Assembly: GCA_963739335.1 (NCBI GenBank)
Contig: CAVUAC010000051.1
Location: 99,500-139,499 of the forward strand
Direction of reading: 5' to 3'
Source: an uncultured Bacteroidota bacterium
GTDB taxonomy: Bacteria > Bacteroidota > Ignavibacteria > UBA10030
Length of the DNA: 40,000 bases
Shown here piece by piece: positions 14,955 through 28,136 of the stretch. The position numbers and the translations under genes were made by a program. Position 1 is the first letter of the stretch; the number at the start of each line of letters is the position of its first letter. Below the pieces are notes generated by a model. It was not told where the DNA came from. It saw nothing but the letters and a program-made list of their open reading frames with translations, and did not search any database.

Positions 14955-15461
14955 TCAGAAGACCTTCCCTATTGCCACTCCAAACCAGGGGAGTACGTGG
15001 AATCCTCAGCGATCGTTCCCCTCCGAAACGAAGCATCGGTCCCGCTTTGATGTATAAACCATCCTCGCGCGGTCGATAGTCGTATCCGAATCTTATCAAT
15101 CCGAAAACGCCAGTCGTCATTGATCCCTTGTGAAGCAGGGGAAAGTCAATTCCTGCATCGACGAAGAGGCGATGTCTGATGCCAACGGGGTACCAGCTTG
15201 CGAACATCGGAAGGATCGCTAGGCTTGTGTCGCTGCTCCTGCCGACAGTTGGTTGTGTCCCATCCTGAAAGTCCAGATTCGCAGGCAGCACCGAGAGACC
15301 ACAGCTCACACCAAAAGTATCATTCAGGAGATGTCCGTTCCGTAAAAGAGGCCATAGAAAAACCTTTTTCCGCCCGCTTCGATATACATTGCCTCTGTTG
15401 AGGCGATCTTGGATTGACCAAGGATTTGGCGGGCAGTCGCGACACTCAGAACCACAGAGAA
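14955..15461 (-). pseudogene. small outer-membrane beta-barrel-like gene remnant, frameshifted and abutting/truncated by the IS at its 5' end
   Basis: Different minus frames give SVVLSVATARQ...YIEAGGKRFFYGLFYG (signal-like, then a beta strand). They also give FGVSCGLSVLPANLDF...FGLIRFGYDYRPREDGLYIKAGPMLRFGG and a terminal GFHVLPWFGVAIGKVF-stop (aromatic C-terminus typical of OMPs, stop at 14955..14957). No intact start remains next to the IS end. Confidence 0.35.
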
Positions 15462-16612
15462 CTAGTGCCAGTTCCAAAAAATAAGGTTGTACTTCGTTGA
15501 GGCGTTTAGCACATTAGAGGAGCCACAAAAGAGGAGGCCCGACAATGTGCTTGTATGTTCGTACTTTGAAACTGAAGGAAGGCCGGAAGATCCAAGCCAT
15601 CCTGCGCCGTGGAAAGAATCGCACGGCGATACGGCGTGCACAGGTGATCCTGATGTCTGCGCAAGAGATGCGGGTCAAGGGAATAGCATTGCAGACCTAC
15701 TTGCATCCTGAATACGTTCGGCGGCTCATTCGGCGGTTCAATACCGAAGGACTGCAATTGTTTCAAGAGCGTCCTGGCCGTGGTCGTCCCGGCGAGTTCT
15801 CCGAAGAGATCAAGGCCGAGATCGCAGAAATCGCCCAATGTCCACCCTCGTTGTTGCATCAACCGTATAGCCGATGGTCGCTGGAGAAGCTTCAGGTCTA
15901 TCTGATCAAGACAAAGGTTGTATCGAAGATCAGTATAGAGACCTTACGAACAATCCTCAAAGAGCAACGTGTCAGCCACCAGCGAACCAAGACGTGGAAA
16001 GAGTCAAATGACCCAGACTTTGACGTTAAAAAAAACGAGTGACACGGCTGTACCGGAAACGTCCCAAGGGTTCGCGTGTTGTTTGCTTTGACGAATTTGG
16101 CCCGTTTGAACTGCGTCCGCAGTATGGAATGCACTGGGCACAACGGCGGCATCCGCAACGTCTGCCTGCGACCTACACTCGCCTCCACGGGGTCAGGCAC
16201 TTGCTGGCGTTCTTTGATGTCCACCGTGATCAGTTCTGGGGATACTTCTTTCAGCGCAAGCGCTGGCAAGAGACTCTTCGTGCGTTCAAACGCTTACGCA
16301 AACACTATCCCCGACGAGAACGAATCTATCTTATTCTGGATAACTTTTCGCCCCATAAGCGTCCGGAGATACGACGCTGGGTGCGAGAGAACAATGTTCG
16401 CCTCGTCTGGACGCCGACCAACGCTTCATGGCTCAATCGGATCGAATGCCAGTTCACCGAAATCAGGAAGTTCAGTATCGACGACACCTATCACAGGACG
16501 CATCGCCAGCTTCAGCGCGCCGTCCGTAGGTTCATCCGCTACCGCAACAAGCGGCAACGCAGTAAGAAGGCAAAAAAGAAAACGCAACCTTAATTATTAG
16601 ACCCAGTACTAG
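15462..16612 (+). mobile_element. IS630/Tc1-mariner-family insertion sequence (~1.15 kb) with 27-bp imperfect terminal inverted repeats and TA flanks
   Basis: Left end CTAGTGCCAGTTCCAAAAAATAAGGTT (15462..15488) matches the reverse complement of the right end (16586..16612), CTAGTACTGGGTCTAATAATTAAGGTT, at 20/27 positions. TA is present at both junctions (15463-64 and 16610-11), the IS630 target duplication. The size and the DDE transposase fit the family. Confidence 0.8.
15545..16593 (+). CDS. IS630-family DDE transposase in two frames (orfA 15545..16042, orfB frame open from 16030); -1 shift at the A8 run 16028..16035
   Basis: orfA carries HTH/winged-helix domains (RRAQVILMSAQEMRVKGIALQ; RWSLEKLQVYLI...ISIETLRTIL). 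orfB carries the DD(35)E core (VVCFDEFGP ... LILDNFSPHK ... ASWLNRIECQF). The frames overlap on GTT AAA AAA AAC (an A AAA AAC slippery motif). Confidence 0.85.
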
Positions 16613-16710
16613 AATGCTCGTCTGCCATTTGAGACAGATATGGGTGATCGCATGTTGCTCATCCCTGGAAGTCCATGATGCGACTCGCCGACAATATTGA
16701 TGCTCATGCT

Positions 16711-17679
16711 TCAGCTCTCAGTCCCGGTGTAGCGGTCCGCTGGCCTGAGTATTCGCGGCGCCCACTCCGAATGTCCGCCGTCTTCAAAGAAGTCCTGTCG
16801 AAGGTGCTCTTCCATCCGTTGCAGTGCCATCGCGAGCCATTCCTTCGATTCTCTGAACTCTGGAAAGACCACTACAATCTGGGCAAGCGTGTAGGATCCA
16901 TGGCACTGCCAGTTGCCTGAACGATACCCTTCCCATCGTTCCAGCTCATACAGCCACCGCGCCGCGCCAAGGACCGTTTTCAACATTCGCTCATGGGTTT
17001 GCCACGCTCGTGCTTCATAGTGCAGCAGATAGTATTCGATAAACACCCTGTTCCGAGTTCCAAGACCAAGCTCATAGTACACAACATCGAGCTCGGGAAA
17101 TCCCCGCGTAATCGAATTTCGTTGGTTATACCAGCAAGGAAACAACTCGTCGAATTTTGCAGGATATTGCTGCTCGTGCGTGAGCACGTATGCCGCGATG
17201 AGTGGCCTCGACCACCACCAATAGTGAAAGCCATATTTCCCTGATTGGCCGATGGCACAGTTGAAATCGACACTCGCACCGAAATCGATCACAGCATCTC
17301 CCCATGGGCGGATGATGTTCTTCCATATCCATGACGCACTTGCCATGATGGTGTCCGTTTCTTCGCGATGCCGTGCTGCGTACGCCCGGGCTTCATCGTA
17401 TCCTTTCAGCATATGCGTATCGAGCAAGAAACCGACGTTTTGGGTCATGTACTTCGGCTGGACCTTGGCGCTCCAGTACGACGCCCATGCTTGATATGCT
17501 CGGTCAAATTCATTGTGCCGGACAGCGCGTTCGACCTGCTGCAATCCGTTTTGATCCAAACGAAGCGCAAGAAAAAGATCACCGTTGCTGATGTCTTTGA
17601 TCTGATGCTGAAGGTAGTCCGCGTCGTTCAGTCGCGAATGCTCAGCAAACTTGAGCTGGCCGGAAAGTGACCCTATCAT
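16711..17679 (-). CDS. heparinase II/III-like (alginate-lyase superfamily) protein, N-terminal alpha/alpha-toroid part only; probably truncated
   Basis: GNWQCHGSYTLAQIVVVFPEFRESKEWLAMALQRMEEHLRQDFFEDGGHSE matches my recollection of the heparinase II/III N-terminal domain ending (N-H...FPE...DG...E.S..Y). The expected C-terminal beta-sandwich domain is absent, and the ORF stops 100 bp from the IS. The signal-peptide-like KTLLLFILMIGSLSG lacks an in-frame canonical start. Confidence 0.5.
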   Translation of the reverse strand: MIGSLSGQLKFAEHSRLNDADYLQHQIKDISNGDLFLALRLDQNGLQQVERAVRHNEFDRAYQAWASYWSAKVQPKYMTQNVGFLLDTHMLKGYDEARAYAARHREETDTIMASASWIWKNIIRPWGDAVIDFGASVDFNCAIGQSGKYGFHYWWWSRPLIAAYVLTHEQQYPAKFDELFPCWYNQRNSITRGFPELDVVYYELGLGTRNRVFIEYYLLHYEARAWQTHERMLKTVLGAARWLYELERWEGYRSGNWQCHGSYTLAQIVVVFPEFRESKEWLAMALQRMEEHLRQDFFEDGGHSEWAPRILRPADRYTGTES

Positions 17680-18684: not shown

Positions 18685-19064
18685 GAGGCATTCGCGCGTT
18701 TGTTCATATGCTCTCGGGCAACCTTCACTATGTCGCTCAACTCAAATGGTTTGACGACGTATGCATCAGCTCCGAGCTCAGTCGCTTTGTCGATGTCCGG
18801 CTTGTAGGATTTTGCTGACATGACGATGATCGTTGTCGATGAGAACCGTATATCCTGACGAAGCATTCGACACACTTCGAAGCCAAGCAGCCGCGGCATC
18901 ATAAGATCAAGGAGAATCAAATCAGGCACCTCTGTGCCCGCTACTTGAACGGCATCTTCGCCGTTATCGGCTTGCAGAACGGTAAATCCTTCTCGTTCAA
19001 AGCCGTTGGCGACTAACCCCCGAAAAAAATCCTCATCATCGACGATGAGTACCTTCGGTTTCAC
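18681..19064 (-). CDS. single-domain response regulator (CheY-like receiver)
   Basis: KVLIVDDEDFF ... DLILLDLMMP ... IIVMSAKS ... GADAYVVKPF; all receiver hallmarks are present. Confidence 0.88.
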   Translation of the reverse strand: MKPKVLIVDDEDFFRGLVANGFEREGFTVLQADNGEDAVQVAGTEVPDLILLDLMMPRLLGFEVCRMLRQDIRFSSTTIIVMSAKSYKPDIDKATELGADAYVVKPFELSDIVKVAREHMNKRANAS

Positions 19065-19568
19065 GGGTTTTCCTACTCCGGGAATTGGCAGCTGAGTTTT
19101 TGAGAAAATAACGGGGGGTGCGTTGTCAGATCACTTCCCGCGTTGCCGGGAAACATATCAATTACTTTGCCGAAAGGCAACTTAAGCGAAGCACTATCCG
19201 GCGATTGTCAACAGTGAGAAGCCCGAAAATACAGCTTGCGGAGACAATTTGTGAGGCCACCCTGTTAAACGAGAGGATCCACTTCTGCATTCGAAATTCA
19301 GCGTTCGGTGTTCGACATTCATCGGGGCGCGATCCAAACGGAACGAGCCTGGGGAATATCCAATAACGAACGCCCAATCATGAATGATGAAGTGGATCGC
19401 CCAGCTGTCGGGGTGAGAGCATTCCCCGCCCGCTTGACCGCAGGCGGTCGGGCGGGGAACCTCCGGTCCCCTGTTCGAAATTGTCCGGCGAGCACGTTCT
19501 TAGCGAGCCGTCGACAATTTCAGAATCCCCGTCTGTTTTTCAGACGGGACGCCCATCACTCAGCATTG

Positions 19569-19643
19569 TCGGGGTGACAGGATTCGAACCTGCGACCCCC
19601 TGCGCCCAAGGCAGGTGCGCTAACCGGACTGCGCTACACCCCG
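19569..19643 (-). tRNA. tRNA-Pro (anticodon UGG), 75 nt, CCA not encoded
   Basis: The minus strand reads CGGGGTG TA GCGC AGTCCGGTTA GCGC A CCTGC CTTGGGC GCAGG GGGTC GCAGG TTCGAAT CCTGT CACCCCG A. It folds as a full cloverleaf, the anticodon loop CT-TGG-GC gives Pro, and the T-loop is TTCGAAT. Confidence 0.92.
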
Positions 19644-19645
19644 AA
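19601..19645. repeat. attL: copy 1 of a perfect 45-bp direct repeat (tRNA-Pro positions 1-43 plus 2 upstream nt)
   Basis: TGCGCCCAAGGCAGGTGCGCTAACCGGACTGCGCTACACCCCGAA is identical to 27266..27310. The bases on both sides differ (C/T before, G/A after). Confidence 0.9.
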
Positions 19646-20044
19646 GAAAATCAAAGGTTTTTTGACAGTTTTTCTTCCCTCAACGTTATGAAATTGCTAT
19701 TTGTCATTAGCAATTTTATTAGCACCTCATAACGTCAAGAACGCTGAAATGGAACTGCTTGTTTTTTGTTTTTTGCAGAAATTTGACAACGAGAATTCTT
19801 GCTACTTCTGTAAGTTACAGAAAAAGACTCCTCATATCAAGGGGCATTTTCCTGTAAGTTCTACACGCATGAGAAAAGGAATCACCATTTCTTTAACTCC
19901 TTGTCGTCACGAAGGCTTCGAGCAAGCCCATCGTATGCCAAGCGAATAGGGGTTGTGTACCACTATTCTGCTGTCTAACTTATAGCCAGATTCTTGATTG
20001 AGTCTGGCTTTCTTGTGGTCAGAACAGCGTGTGTTACGACTGGT

Positions 20045-20593
20045 ATGAAATCAGAAATGGATTCTGAGTTCGAGGAATCATTGCATGAATTGCTTGGTCA
20101 GACCCCATCCGCCTGGGTAGAGCAAGCCGAGTGTCTTAGGATATCAGCAAAACTACACTGGACTAAGTTGATGGAGCTTGAGACTCTGTCGCCAACACTC
20201 CCGGGAGTTCGTGTACAAACGCTGGCTTGCATAGATTCGTATATGTTACTGACGGGTTTATCGTTTGAGGTACTCATTAAGGGAGTTCACATTTCAAAAA
20301 CGCCTAATCTGTCCGTTGAGCAACGATTCAATGAATGGGACAAATATCGTGGCGGGCATGGCATATCAACACTGATAGACTTAGTTGACTCAATTTCTCT
20401 TGAAGAAAAGGAGATGCTCAAACGACTAGAAGAATTTACCCAATGGGCAGGCAGATATCCTATACCAAAGAGAGTGCATACATACTGCAACAGTAAGGAA
20501 AAGCATTTACTTTCAGTCAATACTCGGGACCCAATTTTATGTGACGCTCTTTTCAAGCGATTATCGGCCATGATAAAGACCACGAACCAATAA
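20045..20593 (+). CDS. hypothetical all-alpha protein, possibly HEPN-fold-like (island cargo gene 1)
   Basis: The ORF 19994..20593 is shortened to the first ATG at 20045, because a hairpin at 19984..20009 overlaps the TTG start. Motif layout LLTGLSFEVLIKGV ... YRGGHGISTLIDLV ... FTQWAGRYPIP resembles HEPN-type four-helix proteins. No canonical Rx4-6H is seen. Confidence 0.45.
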   Translation: MKSEMDSEFEESLHELLGQTPSAWVEQAECLRISAKLHWTKLMELETLSPTLPGVRVQTLACIDSYMLLTGLSFEVLIKGVHISKTPNLSVEQRFNEWDKYRGGHGISTLIDLVDSISLEEKEMLKRLEEFTQWAGRYPIPKRVHTYCNSKEKHLLSVNTRDPILCDALFKRLSAMIKTTNQ

Positions 20594-20645
20594 TGTCTGC
20601 CGCCGACTTAGGCTTTCAATTGGCTGACTTACAAGGAAGATTCCA

Positions 20646-21452
20646 ATGCCTGACGAGAACAAGAAATCATTCATAAATATCAGTTCCAATGTGCTATTCC
20701 ATTTCACCGGGAGTCTTGACAATCTGAAAAATATATTACGCAATGATTTTTCTCCCCGCTACTGTCCAGAATACGACCCACAAGAGTCAACGGTCGCCCA
20801 CTTGGAGAAGGGAGCACCAAAGTTCGCGAGACCTATGGTATGTTTCTGCGACCTACCATTGTTCCTTATCAAGAATCATCTGATTCGCTATGGACCTTAC
20901 GGAATAGGATTGAAGAAAGAATGGGGTATGAAGAAAGGCATTACTCCAGTGCTGTACGTTCATGTTTGGTCTGAAACCCTAAGACCTCTCCAATGGATAC
21001 GTTCTCTAATACCATGGCAACAAGGTGGACCCAATGCCGAGATAGAGGACATCCAAGGCAATGCAGAAAGTGCTGCCAACTGGATAATGTCCTACGCAAA
21101 ACCATATGAAGGTCCTGCATGGAGAAATGATGTGTATGAAGAACAGGTAAGATTCTATGATGAGCGAGAATGGAGATATACACCAGGTTATTCGCTGCGA
21201 GGTTTTGACTTGCCCCGTTGGATTCCGTACACCGCCAAGAAAGACTTGAGCGGCGCGAACTCGGACATGGAAAGTGAATGCAAGTTGAGTTTTACACCAG
21301 GCGACATTCAATATATCATCTTGAAAGAAGAGGATGAAATTGTGCCCTTTATTCCCATCCTCGCGGACATCAAAGAGAAATTCGGACCAGATGAGGTTAG
21401 CAAGGTCACGACAAAGATTATCACAGAAGACCGAATACGGGAAGATATGTAG
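20646..21452 (+). CDS. AbiGi-like protein (putative abortive-infection component; island cargo gene 2)
   Basis: The N-terminus ISSNVLFHFTGSLDNLKNILRNDFSPRYCPEY matches my recollection of the AbiGi family (Pfam PF10899) signature LFHFT...L..IL..GF.PRYC. The SD-like AAGGAAG lies 6 nt upstream. Needs HMM confirmation. Confidence 0.45.
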   Translation: MPDENKKSFINISSNVLFHFTGSLDNLKNILRNDFSPRYCPEYDPQESTVAHLEKGAPKFARPMVCFCDLPLFLIKNHLIRYGPYGIGLKKEWGMKKGITPVLYVHVWSETLRPLQWIRSLIPWQQGGPNAEIEDIQGNAESAANWIMSYAKPYEGPAWRNDVYEEQVRFYDEREWRYTPGYSLRGFDLPRWIPYTAKKDLSGANSDMESECKLSFTPGDIQYIILKEEDEIVPFIPILADIKEKFGPDEVSKVTTKIITEDRIREDM

Positions 21453-21472
21453 TCAACTCAGAGATAAAGTAG

Positions 21473-22084
21473 ATGAACTCCCCGAGTGCAGGCATCTTCA
21501 TTTTTATACTCTACATTATTCTTGTTTGGAGCGGCGTCAAAGCCATCCGTGCCGGGCTCAGACAATTAAACAATCCTAAAGCCGGCTCCCCTACGTCTGA
21601 TTCCACCCTTCAAACGATTTGGTTCAAGTGGTACGGACCGGCTGGACTGATATACGGTGCAATCGCCATCATCAGTGTCATCTTCATGGCGAAATCCGAC
21701 TTTTCTACAGAATACCCTAACATGGTCGTAGGTCTTCAATCAAGAATTAAAGACCTCGAAGAAGAGAACGCATATTTCAGAGCCGTTGTCAAAGATAGCT
21801 CCAAGTATTCACGCTACACTTTCACTGCGGATATTTACCGCGGGTCAACTCCGTTGTTTGGTGGGACAGTCCTATTGACCTATGATGGAGAACATTTCAT
21901 TTTCAAGGGCGTAAAAGGAGTGTCTCGCGACAGAACAGGTCCATTTTATCTTGATACAATTGATTATAAGGACGGCGACAAGTTCTACCTGAAATTGGAT
22001 TCTGACCAGGTCTGGGGAGTCAATGTGTATACTGGATATACTAACAACATTACTCACCTCTTTCTTCAGTTTTACAGGACTTGA
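21473..22084 (+). CDS. membrane protein: two N-terminal TM helices, short coiled coil, beta-rich C-terminal domain (island cargo gene 3)
   Basis: TM1 GIFIFILYIILVWSGV, TM2 GPAGLIYGAIAIISVIFMA, then LQSRIKDLEEENAYFRAVV and a Tyr/Gly-rich domain. Starts 20 nt after gene 2. No family recognised. Confidence 0.55.
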   Translation: MNSPSAGIFIFILYIILVWSGVKAIRAGLRQLNNPKAGSPTSDSTLQTIWFKWYGPAGLIYGAIAIISVIFMAKSDFSTEYPNMVVGLQSRIKDLEEENAYFRAVVKDSSKYSRYTFTADIYRGSTPLFGGTVLLTYDGEHFIFKGVKGVSRDRTGPFYLDTIDYKDGDKFYLKLDSDQVWGVNVYTGYTNNITHLFLQFYRT

Positions 22085-22273
22085 ACCACGGCTTAACCAT
22101 CTACTGGAAAACATTTAGGTACACCCATGTATTTTGACACGGAGAAGTTGAAAGGAATTCTCCCATATGTTGGACCAATTCTCGTACTGTTAGGTTATCT
22201 GAGGCTGGAAATTGATTGTGATTTTTTATGCGGTTAAACAAAATCGTTACAAATTGTCTTATGGGAGATTATT

Positions 22274-22597
22274 ATGAGAATCCTACCTGTTGGATACCTT
22301 ATTCGCGTATCTTCAAAAGAGGGTCACAGTTTTCTTTTGTGCGTAGCGCACGCACTGGATACAGAGGGCAAATTCTTGGTGGCTGATTTTGCTGAATTTA
22401 TTACAACTTATCCAAGTCGGGGTTTCAATATACCTGCTGGTCGGTCCTTCACTTTTCAAGAGGAATTACAGACTAGTGCAAGAACAAGTTGTTTGATACC
22501 TGTGGACAATGAGAACTTATATGCTTGGATTACCGACAAAATGAAAGAAACCTACGGAAAAGATTTGAAGGTAGAGGTAGAACAGATAAAAGAATGA
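22274..22597 (+). CDS. hypothetical protein (island cargo gene 4)
   Basis: 107-aa ORF with GGGAG 6 nt upstream of the ATG, in the same orientation as the cargo genes. No motif recognised. Confidence 0.45.
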   Translation: MRILPVGYLIRVSSKEGHSFLLCVAHALDTEGKFLVADFAEFITTYPSRGFNIPAGRSFTFQEELQTSARTSCLIPVDNENLYAWITDKMKETYGKDLKVEVEQIKE

Positions 22598-23013
22598 ATT
22601 AGGCGTTAGTCAACACCGTGTTCCTCATCGGAAATTCATAACTCAAAAAAATCCCTCACCGGATACCGGCTGCGATATAGCTACACCCCTTCCCGCTCTA
22701 TTCTGACAGGCGATGTACCGGTGCCCAATGTCGCTCTCTCCTCTGTTCCATGACCCAGGCACATCTTGACTGTTCATGAATCACTGATTAAAACCACTCT
22801 GTTGCGGCGCAATCACGCAACCCCTAGAGTTTACTGAGCGGCCTTTCTAGGTGTGCCCGGCATTTCTGTCGAGTTCAACAAAACTGGCTCGCGCCAATTC
22901 CAGGTTTTTTCGATGACAAAAACCTCAACTTTCACATGTGCAGTTAGTATACCCAGTTTGCAGATTCACCTGCCAAAGGGCTTGCCCTTAAGGAAGATTG
23001 CTGAGGTCCATTT

Positions 23014-23271
23014 CTACTTGAGGTTCTCTAACTCTGCCTCAAGGATTGTCAGCCCATAAGCAACCGGGTCAACAATTTCTGACCCGGTTGCGATGCTGTC
23101 GAGAACTGCGGCAAAGACATTCGCTCTCTTCCATACTCCATAAAGGATTGCCTGAGTCTTCTCTGAAGCTCTTCCTTTTCTGTAGGCGTTTTCAATTCCT
23201 CTGTCCTTAAGGAAATAGCTTATATAGAATGGGTTTTTTGGCTCCCAGCTAAGAATACGGAGTACAATCAT
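23014..23271 (-). CDS. hypothetical protein (island backbone)
   Basis: ORF 23014..23331. The first 20 codons (MDLRMDLKMVVRMDLRMVVR) are just the translation of the 12-bp repeat array, so the start is moved to M21 (23271). No family recognised. Confidence 0.4.
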   Translation of the reverse strand: MIVLRILSWEPKNPFYISYFLKDRGIENAYRKGRASEKTQAILYGVWKRANVFAAVLDSIATGSEIVDPVAYGLTILEAELENLK

Positions 23272-23545
23272 TCTTACGACCATTCTCAAATCCATTCTTA
23301 CGACCATTTTCAAATCCATTCTTAAATCCATTCAATTCATTTTCTCTATTCTTTTACATTTTCAACATTCATTAACATTGATAACATCATTGTTTGTCAC
23401 CAAACTGGTCACCATTTGTTCACCAACTTGTTCAATACTTGGTCACCAAGTTGTTCATTATGGAGTCAGTTGTCATCACCATTCTCATCACCATTCTGTT
23501 CACCACTCTGTTTACCACTCTGTTTACCGTTCTGTTTGTGGATTG
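23268..23545. repeat. 12-bp-phased direct-repeat array in three blocks with an AT-rich spacer (iteron-like, candidate origin/operator region)
   Basis: Block 23268..23339 has six 12-mers (TCATTCTTACGA CCATTCTCAAAT CCATTCTTACGA CCATTTTCAAAT CCATTCTTAAAT CCATTCAATTCA). Block 23396..23453 has ~five units with core GTCACCA. Block 23474..23533 has five 12-mers (CATCACCATTCT x2, GTTCACCACTCT, GTTTACCACTCT, GTTTACCGTTCT). An AT-rich stretch lies at 23340..23395. Confidence 0.8.
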
Positions 23546-23870
23546 TTTGATACCATTCCCAGTTCTTTATGGAAATCACCGTGGTTACATTAGTGGTTCT
23601 GAACTCCACCATTTCATGTTCTTTAAGCCATTCCAGGAAAACCCGCACGGTCTTGAAGTTCCACTGCCATCTTTCGGCTAGAGTCTGTTGAGAGTAACAT
23701 AGGTCTCCCGGTTTGAGGTCGATTCCTATTCCCCTCCTAATGAAGACAGTGTGTCTCTTGTGTGAGGCGCAAAGCAACAGGTCTATCCAGGCCTGACACC
23801 TTGTAAATGGCTCGCTAAAATATAGTTCGTTTTCTGTGATTTGTCGGTGAAGCATTATCCATCCTCGCAT
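23466..23870 (-). CDS. replication-organizer / DnaD-like winged-helix protein (island backbone)
   Basis: MRGWIMLHRQITENELYFSEPFTRCQAWIDLLLCASHKRHTVFIRRGIGIDLKPGDLCYSQQTLAERWQWNFKTVRVFLEWLKEHEMV follows a pattern seen in phage/element replication-organizer N-terminal domains: W-I-x-L-H/Y-R-K-I ... AWIDLLL.A ... G ... S...LA..W.W....V..FL..L. The start at 23870 has AAGGAG 5 nt upstream; the ORF track starts at 23942. Confidence 0.55.
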   Translation of the reverse strand: MRGWIMLHRQITENELYFSEPFTRCQAWIDLLLCASHKRHTVFIRRGIGIDLKPGDLCYSQQTLAERWQWNFKTVRVFLEWLKEHEMVEFRTTNVTTVISIKNWEWYQTIHKQNGKQSGKQSGEQNGDENGDDN

Positions 23871-24048
23871 ATTGACTCCTTTTCTTTGGATGCCATTTTC
23901 ATTGTTTCCATCATCTAGGTCTGTTTTTGTTTCAATGGTCAAGTGGCAATGGTCACTTCAGTTGAATTTGTTCAACCACGAGGTCGCACGGTGCAGAGAA
24001 CATAATTCAAATGTGCTGGTTGAACTGTTATTGGTGATTATGAGTCGT

Positions 24049-24483
24049 TCAAGAGTGCGCCATGTGTCTATTTTGCTTTTTCCTTTCTTGTTCCTCAATC
24101 ATTTGCCTAATAGGTGATTTGTCACTCTGCCGTTTTTGCGATTTCTTCCATTCGTCAACTTTGTCCATTCCAAAATCTGACAACCGAAGGTGAAGTTGTT
24201 CGTCCCAACCGAACTCTTGAACTGTAAAACAGTGGGCAATGAAGAATTCCCGACTTCTTTCAAAAATTCTTCCGTCTGAAATACAAAGACGCAATTTGTT
24301 GAAATGTAATTCTTCAATTAACTCCTTCGCAAAACCAGCGGAATTGTACTTTTCAAATATGTTGGCAGCACTCTTCCATATTTCAAGGATGCCGTCTTTC
24401 AGTGTGCCAATCCTGCACCATTCGGCTCCATCTCGTGCTTCGTTACGGAAGAACACCGCACCATCTTTTGCTTTCCGAACCAT
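24049..24483 (-). CDS. hypothetical protein (island backbone)
   Basis: 144-aa ORF with a strong SD (AAGGAGG, 4 nt before the ATG at 24483) and a Lys/Glu-rich C-terminus. No family recognised. Confidence 0.55.
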   Translation of the reverse strand: MVRKAKDGAVFFRNEARDGAEWCRIGTLKDGILEIWKSAANIFEKYNSAGFAKELIEELHFNKLRLCISDGRIFERSREFFIAHCFTVQEFGWDEQLHLRLSDFGMDKVDEWKKSQKRQSDKSPIRQMIEEQERKKQNRHMAHS

Positions 24484-24515
24484 AGGACCTCCTTATTAAG
24501 AAAGAAATAGTTCCA

Positions 24516-24538
24516 TTGGTGCTGGTTAACAGCACCAA
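24516..24538. promoter_or_regulatory. 9-5-9 perfect inverted repeat TTGGTGCTG-GTTAA-CAGCACCAA; candidate operator upstream of 24483 gene
   Basis: Perfect palindrome 33-55 nt upstream of the ATG at 24483. Its arms share the TTGGTG core with the reverse complement of the GTCACCAA repeat units. Confidence 0.45.
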
Positions 24539-25313
24539 GTGGTGAGAGGATGACGCTCTAGCTAATCGTTTTAGTTACTGGGACTGCTCAGTGGAAACTT
24601 CTGCGGGACTATGCAACGCTTGCTTGTTGCTTGCAGGCGACTACATGCGAGGCAAGGGGATTCTTAACTGTTGTGCTGCTAAGAATCTTTAAGTTTTGTA
24701 AATCTGCAGGTTTGCCAAGAAGTCTTTTGTCACGAAAATCCGGCCATTCTTGGCACTAACAGCCGGAGTACAACTCAGTAGGTTTCTTTTCCTCGAGTTT
24801 AATGATTTTGAATTGCTCTCATAATATACGGCGCCCCAATGTAGAATCAAGAGAAAAAATTACAAAATGCGCGAGAGCTGTACCTTTCTTGTGCTTCTCT
24901 ACAATCCAAGCTCAGTCACACGACTTCGCAGCCGGCCATTCTCACATCGGTTTCATCTCAGCTACTTCAATGACATCCGTCTCCGCGCCAGAAATTTCCG
25001 ACAACGGAATAGCCTTTTCATCTGCTAGGATTATGGCCTCAACTTCAGAGATAGCCGGGACAAGAAGAGTATAGTTGGCCTCCATCTTCATCGTCACCCG
25101 GTAGAGTTTCAGTGAGGGCTGGCCAATCGGAGTATCCTTTCAGCCTGTTTTCAGACCTCACCGTGAGAACTTCCGGTACAACGGTAACTGGAATGACCAC
25201 AAGGAGTCAAATCGTCGCCAGAAAAATCAGCGTAGGAGCTTCAAGAGGAAAGGGGTAGTAAAAACAAAAGGCGGTATTTGAAAAACCAGTGACCGGATAA
25301 TATGTGGAATTGA

Positions 25314-26060
25314 TTACTTGCTCTCGACACGAGGCAAAAACTTGGACACATCTAAGACTTTTGAGAGTTTCTTTAACGTGTTAAGACTGGGATAGGTTAA
25401 ACCCCATCTGACATAATACATAGAAGTCGCGCCAGTTCTCTTTTCAAGTTCTGCTCTTGAGATTGATAGTTTCTTCATTTGGTCCCGAATATGATTTGCC
25501 ATCTCCCAATTTCTTAGCGGCATTGACAAAGGTCGTCTCGTGTACCAAGTTCGGATTCTAGAAGGAGGTGGCTCTTTTTCTGGTGGAATCAAATGATACA
25601 TCTCTAGAGCATCTGCGATTATTTTTAATCGTTCAGGTTTCGGATAGAAATATCCTTTGCAATACGCGTAGATGTTCGTTCGGTTTATACCAGTTTTTCG
25701 TGACAATTCCGGTACCGACATATGTAACTTTTCCAATCTGGCGATTAGAGTACCAGCAAAATGTTTATATCGTGGTGTTCTTGCTCTATCTCTCATCAAC
25801 TTCTTCTGATATTGTGCCGCTGTTTCAACCCCTTTCCTGTGGGCTAACTTCTCAAGGTATTGCTCTTGCGTGAAATTGCCTTTTGACTCTCTCCAATGGC
25901 ACACATAATCGTAATATGATTTGAATCCGAGTTTCTTAGCAATTTTGTTCAGATGCTCTGAGTATTTCTCGCCATGCCTCTTACGAAGAACGGCTTGGTA
26001 ATGGTCTCTATTACCAATCTGAATTATGTCTCTCAGATTGAGTCGCTTCTCGCTTTTCAT
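25314..26060 (-). CDS. DNA-binding protein with two XRE-type helix-turn-helix domains (island regulator)
   Basis: Two HTH-like segments are present: MSVPELSRKTGINRTNIYAYCKGYFYPKPERLKIIADAL and LSISRAELEKRTGATSMYYVRWGLTYPSLNTLKKLSKVL. Confidence 0.65.
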   Translation of the reverse strand: MKSEKRLNLRDIIQIGNRDHYQAVLRKRHGEKYSEHLNKIAKKLGFKSYYDYVCHWRESKGNFTQEQYLEKLAHRKGVETAAQYQKKLMRDRARTPRYKHFAGTLIARLEKLHMSVPELSRKTGINRTNIYAYCKGYFYPKPERLKIIADALEMYHLIPPEKEPPPSRIRTWYTRRPLSMPLRNWEMANHIRDQMKKLSISRAELEKRTGATSMYYVRWGLTYPSLNTLKKLSKVLDVSKFLPRVESK

Positions 26061-26149
26061 AGTTGCCTTCCTAGACCAACTATAGAAAGAAATAAAGAGA
26101 TATTCAATTACTCCGACGAACGAGAAAAGAAAGTCCCACTCGCCACTTC

Positions 26150-27181
26150 TCAGTTCAATGCAAAAGCAATCCTGTTTACAGCACTGTGCAGTTGACTGCC
26201 CACAAGGTGCGAGTAGATTTGAGTGACCACTACACTCGAATGCCCAAGCAGCTTTTGAACCTCATAGATACTGACTCCATCCTGCACTAGCCAGGTCGCA
26301 AATGTGTGCCTGAGACAGTGGAAATGCAACCGGCCATTCAGTCCCGAAAGGCGTATGTATTTCTTGAACTTATGCGTGACGAATCCGGGCAACAATTGTC
26401 TACCGGCCAGCGCAAAGACATAGTCAGATGCCCCGGCAGTGCAAGATTTCGCTGTCAGCAATTGAATTGCCACATCGTTTAATGGAACCGTCCTTTTCTT
26501 TCCACATTTTACTCTGAATGTCGGGCTGCTATGTATGTGTACCAACCTGCGAGCTAGGTCCACATCTTGCCATCGTAGGTTGATAACCTCAGCCCTCCGC
26601 ATTCCAGTCACAACCGCAAAGACAATAAGCCCCTTGAACCATTCTTCCTTTATGAGGCTGAGAAATTTCTGAAAGTCATCCTTCGTGAAATATGTTGGTT
26701 CGGCTTCCGGCACTCTAACGAGCTGTACCTTGCTAAAGGGATTGCTCTCAACCAGTCTCCATCGCAACGCAACAAAACAAATTGAGCGAAGAGCCCTCAG
26801 TTCAACATTAACGCTCACAGGCGAAACCTCTTTCAACCGCTCCGTCTTGTATTGGTCGACATGCCAAGGTGTAATTTCAACGAGAGTGCAGTTCCCGGTC
26901 ACTTTTTGAAGGTTTCTCAGAGCAACCCGAAACATGTCGACTGTTGCCTTGGCATAGTTCACGCCCGCATAACTGAGAAACTCCTCAGTAAAGACTTGGA
27001 GGGTTTTTACTTTTGGCTTGCTACTAAGGAGGGTTTTGAAATCTGTTAGCTGCTTTAGTGCATCGCTCTTTAATGAACATCCGGTAGACTTCCATCTTTG
27101 TCTACCCTCATCATTGTAGATGATGTACCAGAAACCGTTTGAACGTTTGAAAAGGGAAAGTGAAAGGTGGGATGTGGTCAT
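26150..27181 (-). CDS. int: tyrosine-type site-specific recombinase (phage integrase family)
   Basis: N-terminal SAM-like core-binding domain. Catalytic residues are in TGMRRAEVINLRWQDV (Arg), HCLRHTFATWLV (HxxR) and LLGHSSVVVTQIYSH (His...Tyr). It sits adjacent to attR. Confidence 0.92.
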   Translation of the reverse strand: MTTSHLSLSLFKRSNGFWYIIYNDEGRQRWKSTGCSLKSDALKQLTDFKTLLSSKPKVKTLQVFTEEFLSYAGVNYAKATVDMFRVALRNLQKVTGNCTLVEITPWHVDQYKTERLKEVSPVSVNVELRALRSICFVALRWRLVESNPFSKVQLVRVPEAEPTYFTKDDFQKFLSLIKEEWFKGLIVFAVVTGMRRAEVINLRWQDVDLARRLVHIHSSPTFRVKCGKKRTVPLNDVAIQLLTAKSCTAGASDYVFALAGRQLLPGFVTHKFKKYIRLSGLNGRLHFHCLRHTFATWLVQDGVSIYEVQKLLGHSSVVVTQIYSHLVGSQLHSAVNRIAFALN

Positions 27182-27265
27182 TGCTAAACCTCCTTATGGT
27201 TTAGCAATTCCATTAGCACTAGAAGAAAAACGTCAAGATTCCGGGCAACGAATCACGGCAAACGT

Positions 27266-27310
27266 TGCGCCCAAGGCAGGTGCGCTAACCGGACTGCGCT
27301 ACACCCCGAA
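27266..27310. repeat. attR: copy 2 of the 45-bp direct repeat (orphan 5' fragment of tRNA-Pro)
   Basis: Identical 45-mer. It has no tRNA 3' half after it and lies 84 nt upstream of the integrase start on the same (minus) strand. Confidence 0.9.
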
Positions 27311-27656
27311 AACATGAATCAAGTTTCTCTGGGCGACTGGAGACTTTGTCAAGGAAACAAGTCTCAATCCGACGATCTTACATGCAACCACCAAAGAGCC
27401 AATCGCCGCCCGCAGCATTCGAAATATACGAAAATCGTGATTGCGCTGCAATGAAATATCTCTTCAATGAACACCAGCGTCAATTCTACTGTCACGTCCC
27501 GTGCCACAGGCCCTCAACGCAGACATCTATGTTTTGTCCCCCCTTTTTTGTACCATTCTGGGGAGGTGATTACAGCGCCACGAATAACCTCACCGTGCAC
27601 AATAGAACTCCACTGTTAGTACGCAGGACATTTCTGCGACTCGTTCAAAGCTGATT

Positions 27657-28136
27657 ATGGATCAAAAGGACGACCTGCTTGAGCGGATGGGTTGGGACGA
27701 AGAGAAACTAAAGCGCGTCCAGGAACTCATCAGCCAGCGCGAGGAGAGACGCTTCGCCAGGACGAAAAAGCTCGTACGAATCCTGGCGTTGATTGCTCTC
27801 GTCGGAGCGATCCTCATTCTCATTGATATTCTTTCACACGGTAAGGGAGCTCCGGTGCCGGTTGACTTCATGAACAAAAGAGCAACGATCGCTGAATGGG
27901 TGAGATCGGGATTCATCAAATCAATCAACGACACTGCATCTACCATTGTGATTGACGAAGCAACGTGGAGCAAGATGTCCGAAGTGAGAAAGAACGCAAT
28001 CGCCCTGCTCTTCAAGGCTTACTTCATGGAAGCAAGCGGCAACAAACAATTCAAGTTCACGGTCAGGGGGAGCTCATCAAACAAGCTGTTGCTCTCCATT
28101 GACAATCCTGGTGTGGGCACAAAGGAAAATCCTTAA
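27657..28136 (+). CDS. hypothetical membrane-anchored protein
   Basis: Charged N-terminus, one TM helix (ILALIALVGAILILIDIL), then a globular C-domain. No family recognised. Confidence 0.5.
   Translation: MDQKDDLLERMGWDEEKLKRVQELISQREERRFARTKKLVRILALIALVGAILILIDILSHGKGAPVPVDFMNKRATIAEWVRSGFIKSINDTASTIVIDEATWSKMSEVRKNAIALLFKAYFMEASGNKQFKFTVRGSSSNKLLLSIDNPGVGTKENP

What the first reader, a model, noticed from the sequence alone, without database searches (positions are those of the whole stretch)
19601..27310. Integrase-bearing ~7.7-kb island inserted in tRNA-Pro(UGG), bounded by a perfect 45-bp direct repeat
TGCGCCCAAGGCAGGTGCGCTAACCGGACTGCGCTACACCCCGAA occurs identically at 19601..19645 (inside the complete tRNA-Pro, minus strand) and at 27266..27310 (orphan fragment). 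The flanking bases differ on both sides. Between the copies lie a tyrosine integrase next to the orphan repeat, a double-HTH regulator, a replication-organizer-like gene with an iteron-like array, and an oppositely oriented cargo cassette. Backbone genes have strong SD sequences (AAGGAGG/AAGGAG). This is the attL/attR architecture of a site-specifically integrated element. There is no capsid, relaxase or primase gene, so it looks like a minimal integrative (possibly satellite- or plasmid-like) element.
Basis: partly seen in the sequence, partly recalled or inferred. Interest (0 to 1): 0.7.

Follow-up and report, generated by a model that had tools for sequence, protein, structure and literature searches.

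The report
Small integrase island upstream of tRNA-Pro
A 7.6-kb mobile element carrying its own integrase, a phage-type replication origin and an abortive-infection gene sits in a proline tRNA gene of an Ignavibacteriales bacterium; it is an ordinary kind of genomic island, unusual only in replacing the front half of the tRNA rather than the back half.

Summary
The 45-bp repeat is exact, occurs only twice, and brackets a segment of 43.5% GC in a 52% GC genome (tetranucleotide distance z = 19).

The interpretation, a site-specifically integrated minimal element, is supported and can be sharpened:

- **Which half of the tRNA.** The repeat is the 5' half of tRNA-Pro(UGG): tRNA positions 1-43 plus 2 upstream bases. 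The element therefore lies upstream of the rebuilt tRNA. The displaced 5' half stays behind the native tRNA promoter, 85 bp in front of the integrase gene. About 4% of Islander islands have this configuration.
- **Relatives.** Integrase relatives (40-73% identical) show the same mirrored layout at tRNA-Pro, tRNA-Leu and tRNA-Thr. One has the identical tRNA-Pro junction in a different host flank.
- **Empty and variable sites.** A sister species has an identical tRNA-Pro with no island. Conspecific strains carry a diverged copy of the element's left arm followed by different cargo.
- **Backbone.** Integrase, a double-HTH regulator, a small acidic ORF, a rare phage-like 144-aa protein, and a replisome-organiser N-domain protein next to about 20 twelve-bp iterons.
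- **Cargo.** An AbiGi-like gene (no AbiGii) plus three unknown genes.
- **Absent.** No capsid, packaging, relaxase, primase or helicase gene, and no recognisable excisionase.

Verdict: a new member of a known kind. How it transfers between cells is unknown.

The parts
19568..19643 (-). Complete tRNA-Pro(UGG). The 3' part (19568-19600) is host DNA; the 5' part (19601-19643) lies in the repeat and is inferred to come from the element.
   Evidence: ARAGORN; Rfam tRNA 68.3 bits; 76/76 identical to the tRNA-Pro of the sister species.
19601..19645 (.). attL core: the tRNA-proximal copy of the 45-bp direct repeat (tRNA positions 43 to 1, plus 2 nt upstream).
   Evidence: It covers the anticodon stem 5' strand, the loop and 3 of 5 nt of the 3' strand, which is the anticodon-loop sublocation (cloverleaf read from the sequence).
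19646..20011 (-). P arm, the left-end block of the element. It holds the arm-type motif pair GTGCTAATaaaATTGCTAA (19707-19725), a TCTTGACGTT box (19731-19740), a candidate tRNA promoter TTGCTA-N17-CATAAC (19685-19713) and a hairpin at 19984-20009.
   Evidence: 38.5% GC. Conserved at 87.0% in strains L001/L003, against 98.8% for the adjoining host DNA; homology ends at 20011. Motifs. Hairpin. Promoter function is inferred, not shown.
20045..20593 (+). ORF182, unknown function. The public record starts it at ATG 20045; the ORF listing extends it to TTG 19994.
   Evidence: No Pfam, PHROG or PADLOC hit. 23 homologues, found in other mobile-element contexts and not linked to AbiGi.
20646..21452 (+). 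AbiGi-like abortive-infection protein (268 aa).
   Evidence: Pfam PF10899 at 1.9e-30, 106.7 bits against a cut-off of 22.4. PADLOC AbiGi 3e-45. phrog_13416 3.6e-40. The NCBIfam equivalog scores only 46 bits against a cut-off of 300.
21473..22084 (+). ORF203, unknown, with a hydrophobic N-terminus.
   Evidence: No significant family hit.
22274..22597 (+). ORF107, unknown.
   Evidence: No significant family hit.
22810..22922 (.). Conserved non-coding block of unknown role.
   Evidence: 85% identical to L103:3656-3768, with unrelated sequence on both sides. No significant RNA fold on either strand (z = -0.8).
23264..23545 (-). Putative replication origin. About 9 GGT(G/A)A-type 12-mers lie at 23401-23545, a 65-bp spacer of 75% AT at 23336-23400, and 5-6 AATGG-type 12-mers at 23264-23335.
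   Evidence: TRF arrays of period 12/24; repeat families D1/D2; AT content and spacing. The array is conserved in L102 and L103. It overlaps the 3' end of the initiator gene.
23466..23870 (-). Origin-binding initiator candidate: a replisome-organiser / DnaD-like N-terminal domain only (134 aa; start MRGWIML, preceded by AAAGGAG).
   Evidence: PF09681 1e-05; phrog_2514 'DnaD-like helicase loader' 2e-24, matching profile positions 2-128 of 270. Start fixed by homologues in L102/L103. tblastn finds 190 phage records against 16 plasmid records.
24049..24483 (-). 144-aa backbone protein of a rare, phage-associated family; function unknown.
   Evidence: 43 hits among 1.84 billion representatives. 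AF2 model pLDDT 95.7. No significant PDB fold match; best is the Hjc resolvase at E = 0.14. Matches uncharacterised Caudovirales proteins at E = 6e-7. Homologues lie in the L009 island just upstream of a DnaB-like helicase, and in L012.
24942..25091 (-). Small acidic ORF (49 aa, MKMEANYTLLVPAISEVEAI...).
   Evidence: 78% and 92% amino-acid identity in L102 and L103, where the DNA is 81-83% identical. No family hit.
25314..26060 (-). Regulator with two Cro/C1-type HTH domains (248 aa).
   Evidence: PF01381 8.9e-13, two stretches; phrog_8 9.2e-18. Replaced by an unrelated gene in the otherwise similar L102.
26150..27181 (-). Tyrosine integrase (343 aa).
   Evidence: PF00589 1.5e-35; phrog_1 2.4e-68. 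Aligns to XerA/XerD structures. Catalytic R195, H288-x-x-R291, H314 and Y323 are present. 965 homologues at E <= 1e-40.
27182..27265 (-). P' arm. It holds the motif pair GTGCTAATggaATTGCTAA (27201-27219), a TCTTGACGTT box, and the perfect inverted repeat TTGCTAAACC-N7-GGTTTAGCAA (27181-27207) that covers the int Shine-Dalgarno sequence and start codon.
   Evidence: (D13). The same layout occurs in L006, L101 and L118; a different motif occurs in L009.
27266..27310 (.). attR core: orphan 5' half of tRNA-Pro, in the same orientation as the tRNA and int.
27423..27452 (-). Host DNA, not part of the element: the native tRNA-Pro promoter-like block TTGCAG-N17-TATATT. It now lies 114 nt upstream of the orphan half.
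   Evidence: 27/31 nt shared with the region upstream of the unoccupied tRNA-Pro of L088. The same TTGCAG-N17-TATATT lies 28 nt upstream of the orphan in L118. Coordinates.

Best explanation
Window 19646-27265, plus one copy of the 45-bp core, is a compact integrative element. Its own tyrosine integrase inserted it into the anticodon-loop region of the host tRNA-Pro(UGG) gene.

Unlike most tRNA-targeting elements, its attP carries the 5' part of the tRNA. After recombination the element therefore lies upstream of a rebuilt tRNA: element-derived positions 1-43 joined to host-derived positions 44-76. The displaced host 5' half stays attached to the native tRNA promoter, just in front of int.

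Shown:
- the anatomy described above;
- the compositional foreignness of the segment;
- the same mirrored anatomy in relatives at four tRNA species;
- the identical tRNA-Pro junction in a second host background;
- an unoccupied site in a sister species;
- different cargo in conspecific strains.

Inferred:
- Crossover occurs in the 7-nt anticodon loop, with the stem arms acting as core sites.
- The TGCTAA repeats on both arms are arm-type Int sites. The inverted copy over the int start codon gives autoregulation.
- The element's P arm supplies the promoter for the rebuilt tRNA, while the native promoter reads into the orphan half and int.
- After excision, by an unidentified directionality factor, the N-domain-only replisome-organiser protein binds the iterons. 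It recruits a host or helper helicase and primase to replicate the circle.
- The AbiGi-like gene gives the host abortive-infection defence.
- Transfer between cells needs outside help, because no packaging or conjugation gene is present.
For: Repeat and tRNA.

Composition: 43.5% against 52.3% GC; tetranucleotide z = 19.

Gene content.

Mirrored layout (5' fragment, then int, then the full tRNA at the far end) in integrase relatives:
- L006: tRNA-Leu, 72-bp repeat, 6.5 kb.
- L009: tRNA-Thr, 69-bp repeat, 7.5 kb.
- L101: tRNA-Pro(GGG), 64-bp repeat, 5.7 kb.
- L118: integrase 73% identical, orphan tRNA-Pro(UGG) positions 1-43, the same GCGCA|ACGT junction, and a different host flank carrying TTGCAG-N17-TATATT.

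Unoccupied site: L088/L110, L109, L111 and L112 show RND pump, tRNA-Pro (76/76 identical), response regulator, MBL. Their upstream promoter block matches the window's right flank at 27/31 nt.

Conspecific strains: L001 and L003 share the P arm at 87.0%, against 98.8% for host DNA, and then carry different cargo.

Arm motifs: TGCTAA pairs on both arms plus an inverted copy at the int ATG in the window, L006, L101 and L118. L009, the most divergent integrase, has GGTTGCC instead. Five of the 11 TTAGCA/TGCTAA sites in the 40-kb window fall in these arms.

Replication module: conserved at about 81% nt identity in L102 and L103, beside different accessory genes. Iterons and AT-rich spacer. The initiator family is mostly phage-borne.

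Precedent: 159 of 3919 Islander islands have a 5' tDNA fragment (PMC4383910). Upstream-integrating islands are noted in Klebsiella (bioRxiv 10.1101/2020.11.02.365908).
Against: - No excised circle, attP junction or same-species empty attB was seen. The exact integrase is on record on a single contig.
- The sister-species 'empty site' is not syntenic beyond about 150 bp upstream of the tRNA.
- No excisionase was recognised.
- The candidate promoter for the rebuilt tRNA matches only 8/12 of the sigma-70 consensus, and the scan did not list it.
- No helicase, primase or loader is present, so autonomous replication is uncertain.
- AbiGi lacks its AbiGii partner and scores far below the NCBIfam equivalog cut-off.
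- No relatives of the element were found in IMG/VR, phage or plasmid collections.
Confidence: 0.85

Rival explanations
1. It is a helper-dependent phage satellite (PICI-like or minimal). A helper phage lifts repression by the HTH protein, the element excises and replicates from its iterons, and it is packaged in helper capsids. The AbiGi-like cargo interferes with competing phages.
For: The int, HTH regulator, initiator with adjacent iterons, and defence-type cargo follow the order seen in satellites. The initiator and the 144-aa protein have phage relatives. The element is compact and has no structural genes.
Against: No terS, capsid-remodelling, AlpA/Xis or primase-helicase gene was found. 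No relatives were found in 2.9 million IMG/VR contigs or in the phage collection. The regulator is co-directional with int rather than divergent, and the related L102 has a different gene in its place. At 7.6 kb the element is smaller than classical PICIs.
Confidence: 0.25
2. It is a tycheposon-like or integrative-plasmid element. It excises, replicates as a small circle, and spreads passively (vesicles, transformation, generalised transduction), carrying variable niche or defence cargo.
For: It combines a tyrosine recombinase, a replication module and variable cargo at a tRNA gene. Cargo differs between conspecific strains and between relatives: methyltransferases, T9SS-secreted proteins, an ion channel. 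Tycheposons use tRNA-Pro(UGG) among other tRNA targets (bioRxiv 10.1101/2020.12.28.424599).
Against: The integrase was not tested against the tycheposon clade. The replication module lacks the primase or helicase described for tycheposons. No circular form or vesicle data exist.
Confidence: 0.3
3. It is an integrative mobilisable element that carries only an oriT and is moved by a conjugative element present in the same cell.
For: A conserved non-coding block (22810-22922) shared with L103 has no assigned function and could be a cis site. Bacteroidota and their relatives are known to host small mobilisable elements (general knowledge).
Against: No relaxase, mobilisation or coupling protein was detected by Pfam, PHROGs or NCBIfam. 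Nothing in the block resembles a known oriT; no structure signal was found. There is no DNA match to the plasmid collection.
Confidence: 0.08
4. It is a decaying prophage remnant that can no longer move.
For: No structural, lysis or excision genes are present. The initiator lacks its C-terminal domain. The element is seen on one contig only.
Against: The 45-bp repeats are perfect. The integrase is full-length with all catalytic residues. Relatives of 5.7-7.5 kb share the same compact layout and the short initiator. Conspecific strains differ at this site. The backbone ORFs are intact and have strong ribosome-binding sites.
Confidence: 0.1

Closest known systems
tDNA-integrated genomic islands with a 5' tDNA fragment (Islander class; 159 of 3919 islands)
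   Same: An intact tRNA gene plus a displaced terminal tRNA fragment in the same orientation, with a tyrosine integrase between them. The fragment is the 5' end and lies upstream. The identity block ends at the anticodon stem-loop.
   Different: None in kind. The host phylum (Ignavibacteriales) and the gene set are not among characterised examples, as far as the searched literature shows.
Tycheposons of Prochlorococcus and other marine bacteria
   Same: A tyrosine recombinase, a replication module and variable cargo; tRNA targets that include Pro(UGG); small size; no transfer genes of its own.
   Different: The initiator here is a replisome-organiser N-domain with iterons, and there is no primase or helicase. 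Membership of the integrase clade was not tested. The host phylum differs. The configuration here is on the 5' side.
Phage-inducible chromosomal islands (PICIs / SaPIs)
   Same: The order int, HTH regulator, initiator, then iteron origin immediately 3' of the initiator gene; cargo of the anti-phage type.
   Different: No packaging module, no Rep helicase or primase, half the size, a non-divergent regulator, and no helper known.
Lambda-type heterobivalent tyrosine integrases that use the anticodon-loop sublocation of tRNA genes (Williams 2002 classification, as cited)
   Same: A catalytic R..HxxR..H..Y set. An N-terminal extension of about 60 aa. Repeated motifs on both arms. A core that spans the symmetric anticodon stem-loop.
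   Different: The identity block extends to the 5' end of the tRNA instead of the 3' end. Arm binding is inferred only.
Lactococcal AbiG abortive-infection system
   Same: An AbiGi-family protein.
   Different: No AbiGii partner. The match is far below the NCBIfam equivalog cut-off (46 against 300 bits). The neighbouring genes are unrelated unknowns.

Membership tests
tDNA-integrated genomic island (Islander criteria) | Full tRNA gene plus a terminal fragment of the same tRNA, in the same orientation and on the correct side (5' fragment upstream) | tested here: met
   tRNA at 19568-19643(-); fragment of positions 1-43 at 27266-27308, same strand, upstream of the tRNA.
tDNA-integrated genomic island (Islander criteria) | Tyrosine integrase gene inside the interval; interval length 2-200 kb | tested here: met
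   PF00589 1.5e-35 at 26150-27181; interval 7620 bp.
tDNA-integrated genomic island (Islander criteria) | Mobility: unoccupied site in relatives, or attP/attB junctions | tested here: inconclusive
   Unoccupied identical tRNA-Pro in a sister species, different cargo in conspecific strains and the same junction in another host flank. No same-species empty site or circle junction was available.
PICI-type phage satellite | Integrase plus regulator plus replication initiator with adjacent origin | tested here: inconclusive
   int, a 2xHTH protein and an initiator N-domain with iterons are present. The initiator has no helicase or primase domain, and the regulator is not divergent.
PICI-type phage satellite | Packaging or capsid-redirection genes (terS, cpm, ppi and the like) | tested here: not met
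   No such Pfam or PHROG hit for any ORF of 50 aa or more.
PICI-type phage satellite | Induction and packaging by a helper phage | not testable with these tools
   No relatives in IMG/VR or the phage collection.
Tycheposon | Integrase belonging to the tycheposon tyrosine-recombinase clade | not tested
   No reference sequences were at hand; only the description was read.
Tycheposon | tRNA-targeted, replication module, exchangeable cargo | tested here: met
   The replication module lacks a primase or helicase.
Integrative mobilisable element (NBU-like) | Relaxase or Mob protein and oriT | tested here: not met
   No relaxase or Mob family hit. oriT cannot be assessed.
AbiG abortive-infection system | AbiGi protein | tested here: met
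   PF10899 at 106.7 bits (cut-off 22.4); PADLOC AbiGi 3e-45. The NCBIfam equivalog cut-off is not reached.
AbiG abortive-infection system | AbiGii partner encoded next to AbiGi | tested here: not met
   No PADLOC or Pfam AbiGii hit for the flanking ORFs.
Heterobivalent (lambda-type) tyrosine integrase | Catalytic R-K-H-R-H/W-Y set | tested here: met
   R195, H288, R291, H314 and Y323 lie in the conserved motifs and align to XerA/XerD. The lysine was not mapped precisely.
Heterobivalent (lambda-type) tyrosine integrase | Arm-type binding sites on both arms of attP | tested here: inconclusive
   TGCTAA-N5-TGCTAA pairs on both arms in four elements, with a different motif in the most divergent one. 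Binding has not been shown.

The most novel reading that the evidence does not exclude
This may be one member of an undescribed family of 5.7-7.7-kb helper-dependent replicons of Ignavibacteriota and Bacteroidota. In this reading the family inserts on the 5' side of tRNA genes and so swaps promoters. The element's arm, whose Int-binding TGCTAA repeat overlaps a -35-like hexamer, would drive an essential tRNA. The strong host tRNA promoter would read through the orphan half into int and the co-oriented backbone. That would couple element gene expression and tRNA supply to the integration state. The 144-aa protein and the N-domain-only organiser would form a minimal origin-recognition pair that hijacks a phage replisome.
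Probability: 0.2. Interest if true: 0.6.

Novelty: new member of a known kind. Interest (0 to 1): 0.38.

Why it matters
The result gives a precisely bounded integrase/attP/attB set for Ignavibacteriales, a phylum that has no genetic tools. The att prediction is concrete: the core is tRNA-Pro positions 1-43, with arm motifs on both sides. That could be used for site-specific insertion.

It also documents the rarer 5'-side tRNA configuration across several relatives, with both the native promoter and a candidate replacement promoter visible. This makes testable the question of how such elements keep the target tRNA expressed.

The cargo adds an AbiGi-like gene without AbiGii, and three unknown genes, as candidates for anti-phage function. 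None of this changes the current understanding of genomic islands.

Tried and rejected
- **Exact look-up of the integrase.** The look-up of encoding contigs found nothing, although the protein database holds it on one 355,731-bp contig.
- **Same-species empty site.** Contigs with the exact flanking proteins either break at the repeat (L002 and L005, from run ERR10755944) or carry a different element. No same-species empty attB could be read. Four further contigs had no DNA on file.
- **DNA searches of the whole island.** No match against phage or plasmid collections.
- **attP/attR junction in IMG/VR.** The 19-mer gave no match.
- **Backbone proteins in IMG/VR.** The 144-aa protein and the initiator gave no relatives. 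The integrase gave only 23-26% relatives.
- **Rfam over 19000-28000.** Only the tRNA was found.
- **Fold of the conserved 115-nt block.** No signal on either strand.
- **Excisionase among small ORFs.** No family hit.
- **Hypothesis that ORF182 partners AbiGi.** Rejected, because its homologues occur without AbiGi.
- **Hypothesis that 19646-20011 is host DNA.** Rejected for three reasons: it lies inside the repeat; it is 10 times more diverged than the host flank; and it carries the same arm motifs as the integrase-proximal arm.
- **ORF 23014-23331.** Judged probably not a gene. Its N-terminus is the iteron array, and the rest is not conserved as an ORF in L103.
- **Williams 2002.** The paper could not be read.

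Full report
**1. The observation**

The 45-mer TGCGCCCAAGGCAGGTGCGCTAACCGGACTGCGCTACACCCCGAA occurs exactly twice in the window, at 19601-19645 and 27266-27310. No third copy appears at up to three mismatches, and none in 100 shuffles. ARAGORN and Rfam place one complete tRNA-Pro(UGG) at 19568-19643 on the minus strand.

The bases bordering the repeat differ on both sides, and the repeat finder shows no larger duplication around it.

GC falls from about 52% to about 43.5% between the repeats. The tetranucleotide distance of the segment to the host flanks is 0.393. Thirty-five host windows of the same size give 0.105 +/- 0.015, so z = 19.

**2. Which half of the tRNA is repeated**

The tRNA is on the minus strand with its 5' end at 19643. 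The anticodon is CCA on the plus strand at 19606-19608. The repeat therefore covers tRNA positions 1-43 plus two upstream bases. That includes the acceptor 5' strand, the D arm, the anticodon stem 5' strand, the anticodon loop and three of the five bases of the stem 3' strand (sequence).

The element consequently lies upstream of the intact tRNA. The orphan copy is a 5' half. It sits 85 bp in front of the integrase start codon and in the same orientation.

This mirrors the usual arrangement. In the Islander survey, 3760 islands had a 3' fragment and 159 had a 5' fragment (PMC4383910). A Klebsiella survey likewise notes a rare integrase clade that inserts upstream of its tDNA (bioRxiv 10.1101/2020.11.02.365908). 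The configuration is uncommon but known.

**3. Gene content**

All backbone genes are on the minus strand, co-oriented with the tRNA.

| Feature | Coordinates | Evidence |
|---|---|---|
| Tyrosine integrase | 26150-27181 | PF00589 1.5e-35; phrog_1 2.4e-68; aligns to XerA/XerD; R195, H288-x-x-R291, H314, Y323 present |
| Protein with two Cro/C1 HTH domains | 25314-26060 | |
| Small acidic ORF, 49 aa | 24942-25091 | conserved at protein level in two relatives |
| 144-aa protein | 24049-24483 | see below |
| Initiator candidate, 134 aa | 23466-23870 | matches only the N-terminal domain of phage replisome organisers / DnaD-like loaders (PF09681 1e-05; phrog_2514 2e-24, profile positions 2-128 of 270) |

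Homologues fix the initiator start at MRGWIML, which is preceded by AAAGGAG. Its relatives occur in 190 phage records and 16 plasmid records.

The 3' end of the initiator gene runs into an array with a 12-bp period:
- about nine GGT(G/A)A-type units at 23401-23545;
- a 65-bp spacer of 75% AT at 23336-23400;
- five to six AATGG-type units at 23264-23335.

This is the layout of an iteron origin.

The 144-aa protein belongs to a rare family, with 43 hits among 1.84 billion representatives. A 43-sequence alignment gave a confident model (pLDDT 95.7). The model has no significant match among solved structures; the best is the Hjc resolvase at E = 0.14. It does match uncharacterised proteins of uncultured tailed phages (E = 6e-7). 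Its homologue in the L009 island lies immediately upstream of a DnaB-like helicase and a Phage_rep_O gene. I therefore place it in the replication module, function unknown.

On the plus strand, converging on the backbone, lie four cargo genes:
- ORF182 (20045-20593);
- an AbiGi-family protein (20646-21452): PF10899 at 106.7 bits against a cut-off of 22.4; PADLOC AbiGi 3e-45; NCBIfam equivalog only 46 bits against 300;
- ORF203;
- ORF107.

No AbiGii partner was found. Homologues of ORF182 occur in other mobile-element contexts without AbiGi.

No capsid, terminase, relaxase, primase, helicase or excisionase family was detected.

**4. Host and relatives at the same locus**

*Host.* The flanks encode T9SS-sorted proteins. 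The MBL-fold neighbour falls in a 90% identity cluster with a protein from an Ignavibacteriales MAG. The host is therefore an Ignavibacteriales bacterium.

*Conspecific strains.* Contigs carrying the exact response-regulator protein (L001, L003) are 98.8% identical to the window in host DNA. They are only 87.0% identical over 19646-20011. Beyond 20011 they carry an unrelated membrane-protein gene. Different strains of the species therefore hold related but different elements at this tRNA.

*Sister species.* In a sister species (MBL 89% identical), four independent assemblies show an RND pump, a 76/76 identical tRNA-Pro, the response regulator and MBL. They have no integrase and no orphan fragment. 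That site is unoccupied.

*Native promoter.* The region upstream of the tRNA in the sister species shares a 27/31-nt block, ATTGCAG...TTTTCGTATATT (TTGCAG-N17-TATATT), with the window's right flank at 27423-27452. It does not share it with the island side. The window's right flank is therefore the native tRNA upstream region, now separated from the tRNA by the island.

**5. The integrase family**

The integrase has 965 homologues at E <= 1e-40, mostly from Ignavibacteria and Bacteroidetes MAGs.

| Locus | Integrase identity | Target tRNA | Repeat | Distance between repeats | Layout |
|---|---|---|---|---|---|
| L006 | 54% | Leu(UAG) | 72 bp | 6.5 kb | mirrored (5' side) |
| L009 | 40% | Thr(CGU) | 69 bp | 7.5 kb | mirrored |
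| L101 | 59% | Pro(GGG) | 64 bp | 5.7 kb | mirrored |
| L098/L099 | 57% | Pro(GGG) | — | — | ordinary (3' side) |

In the mirrored cases each repeat starts 1-5 nt upstream of the tRNA 5' end and stops in the T-loop region. L098/L099 shows that both orientations occur within the family.

The closest relative, L118 (73% identical), comes from another metagenome. It has TTGCAG-N17-TATATT 28 nt upstream of an orphan tRNA-Pro(UGG) of positions 1-43. The junction is the same GCGCA|ACGT as in the window, followed by the integrase and then a methyltransferase gene. The same crossover point in a different host flank is what site-specific integration predicts.

**6. Arm motifs**

In integrase orientation, the window carries GTGCTAATaaaATTGCTAA 60-80 nt upstream of the core (19707-19725). 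It carries GTGCTAATggaATTGCTAA 47-65 nt downstream of the core (27201-27219). Each has a TCTTGACGTT box beside it.

An inverted TTAGCA overlaps the int start codon, inside the perfect palindrome TTGCTAAACC-N7-GGTTTAGCAA that spans the Shine-Dalgarno sequence. Five of the eleven TTAGCA/TGCTAA sites in the 40-kb window lie in these two short arms.

L006, L101 and L118 have the same arrangement. L009, with the most divergent integrase, has paired GGTTGCC repeats at the same positions instead.

The motif changes with the integrase. Together with the roughly 60-residue N-terminal extension of the protein, this makes arm-type Int sites the most likely reading. That is an inference; no binding was shown. 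It also confirms that 19646-19745 belongs to the element's attP.

**7. Mosaic relatives of the backbone**

L102 and L103 are about 81% identical to window 25120-23200, which spans the acidic ORF, the 144-aa gene, the initiator and the iterons. L102 has a lipoprotein-like gene where the HTH regulator sits, after an integrase 3' end that is 90% identical. L103 has a methyltransferase upstream. The replication module therefore travels with different partners.

A 115-nt non-coding block (22810-22922) is 85% identical in L103 and flanked by unrelated DNA. It has no Rfam hit and no fold signal. Its role is unknown.

**8. How it most likely works**

Shown:
- the integrated anatomy and the foreign composition;
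- the family-wide mirrored architecture;
- the identical junction in a second host;
- the unoccupied sister-species site and the strain-level variation.

Inferred:
- Int recombines attP with the tRNA-Pro gene. Strand exchange occurs in the 7-nt anticodon loop, and the stem arms act as inverted core sites. The identity block extends to the tRNA 5' end, so the gene is rebuilt.
- The rebuilt tRNA must be transcribed from the element's arm. The candidate promoter TTGCTA-N17-CATAAC (19685-19713) is weak (8/12) but conserved in L001. L006 has an analogous TTGCTA-N16-TATATA at the same place, and in both the -35 hexamer is an arm-motif copy.
- The native promoter now points through the orphan half into int and the co-oriented backbone. 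The palindrome over the int ribosome-binding site, or Int bound to it, may limit expression.
- Excision needs a directionality factor, which I could not identify.
- The excised circle would be replicated from the iterons by the N-domain initiator, using a borrowed helicase and primase.
- The AbiGi-like gene plausibly benefits the host through abortive infection.
- Transfer needs a helper phage, vesicles, transformation or a conjugative partner. No data discriminate among these. Searches of IMG/VR, phage and plasmid collections found no relatives of the element.

**9. Comparison and verdict**

The element meets the structural criteria of a tDNA-integrated genomic island of the 5'-fragment class. 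It works like a cargo-carrying tycheposon or a stripped-down PICI. It fails the packaging-gene criterion for PICIs and the relaxase criterion for mobilisable elements. Membership of the tycheposon integrase clade was not tested.

It is a new member of a known kind. It is worth recording for its clean att definition in a phylum without genetic tools, and for the visible promoter exchange, but it is not surprising to a specialist.

Noticed in passing
window 14998-17531: This segment is present in the window and absent from the conspecific contig L001 (L001:3015/3016 joins window 17532 to 14997). The heparinase II/III-like ORF at 16711-17679 is only 322 aa (N-domain), whereas the sister species has a 746-aa gene with both domains. 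It may be a truncated or frameshifted gene and a strain-level indel.
   Followed up: partly
window 19406-19424: A 19-nt copy (89% identical) of the tRNA-Pro 3' end (TGTCGGGGTGA...) lies about 160 bp downstream of the tRNA. Similar repeated 3'-end copies follow the tRNA-Pro in L018 (9216-9233, 9312-9329) and L088. They could be scars of older integrations on the 3' side, or a repeated terminator unit.
   Followed up: partly
window 22810-22922; L103:3656-3768: A non-coding block of about 115 nt is conserved at 85% between two otherwise diverged elements. It has no Rfam hit and no significant fold. It is a candidate cis site (pac, oriT, partition or promoter).
   Followed up: partly
window 19984-20009: A 10-bp-stem hairpin followed by a T-rich run on the plus strand lies exactly where homology with L001/L003 ends. 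It marks the boundary between the conserved arm and the variable cargo. The ORF at 19701-19949 is not conserved in frame in L001, so the arm is probably non-coding.
   Followed up: partly
L010:4266-4645: In an Ignavibacteria MAG, a complete tRNA-Pro(UGG) lies upstream of a 53%-identical integrase that appears frameshifted (it is split between two ORFs). Between them are 151-bp tandem repeats that include the last 18 nt of the tRNA. The configuration could not be resolved because the contig ends.
   Followed up: no
L009:9864-9935 and 17444-17516: ARAGORN calls both ends of this 7.5-kb island as complete tRNA-Thr(CGU), because the repeat covers 68 of about 72 nt. Which copy is functional cannot be told from the sequence.
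   Followed up: no
L104:3848-5605; L105:2848-4605: Homologues of ORF182 lie divergently next to an unrelated (26% identical) integrase and before a Na+/H+ exchanger gene. The family seems to travel with integrase modules in several element types.
   Followed up: partly
window 19276-19398: A 45-nt imperfect inverted repeat (76% complementary, 33-nt spacer) lies in host DNA between the response-regulator gene and the tRNA.
   Followed up: no
L118:1258-2667; L103:79-972: Relatives of the element carry N6/N4 DNA methyltransferase genes where the window has the HTH regulator or cargo. This suggests that restriction-modification or anti-restriction cargo is common in the family.
   Followed up: no
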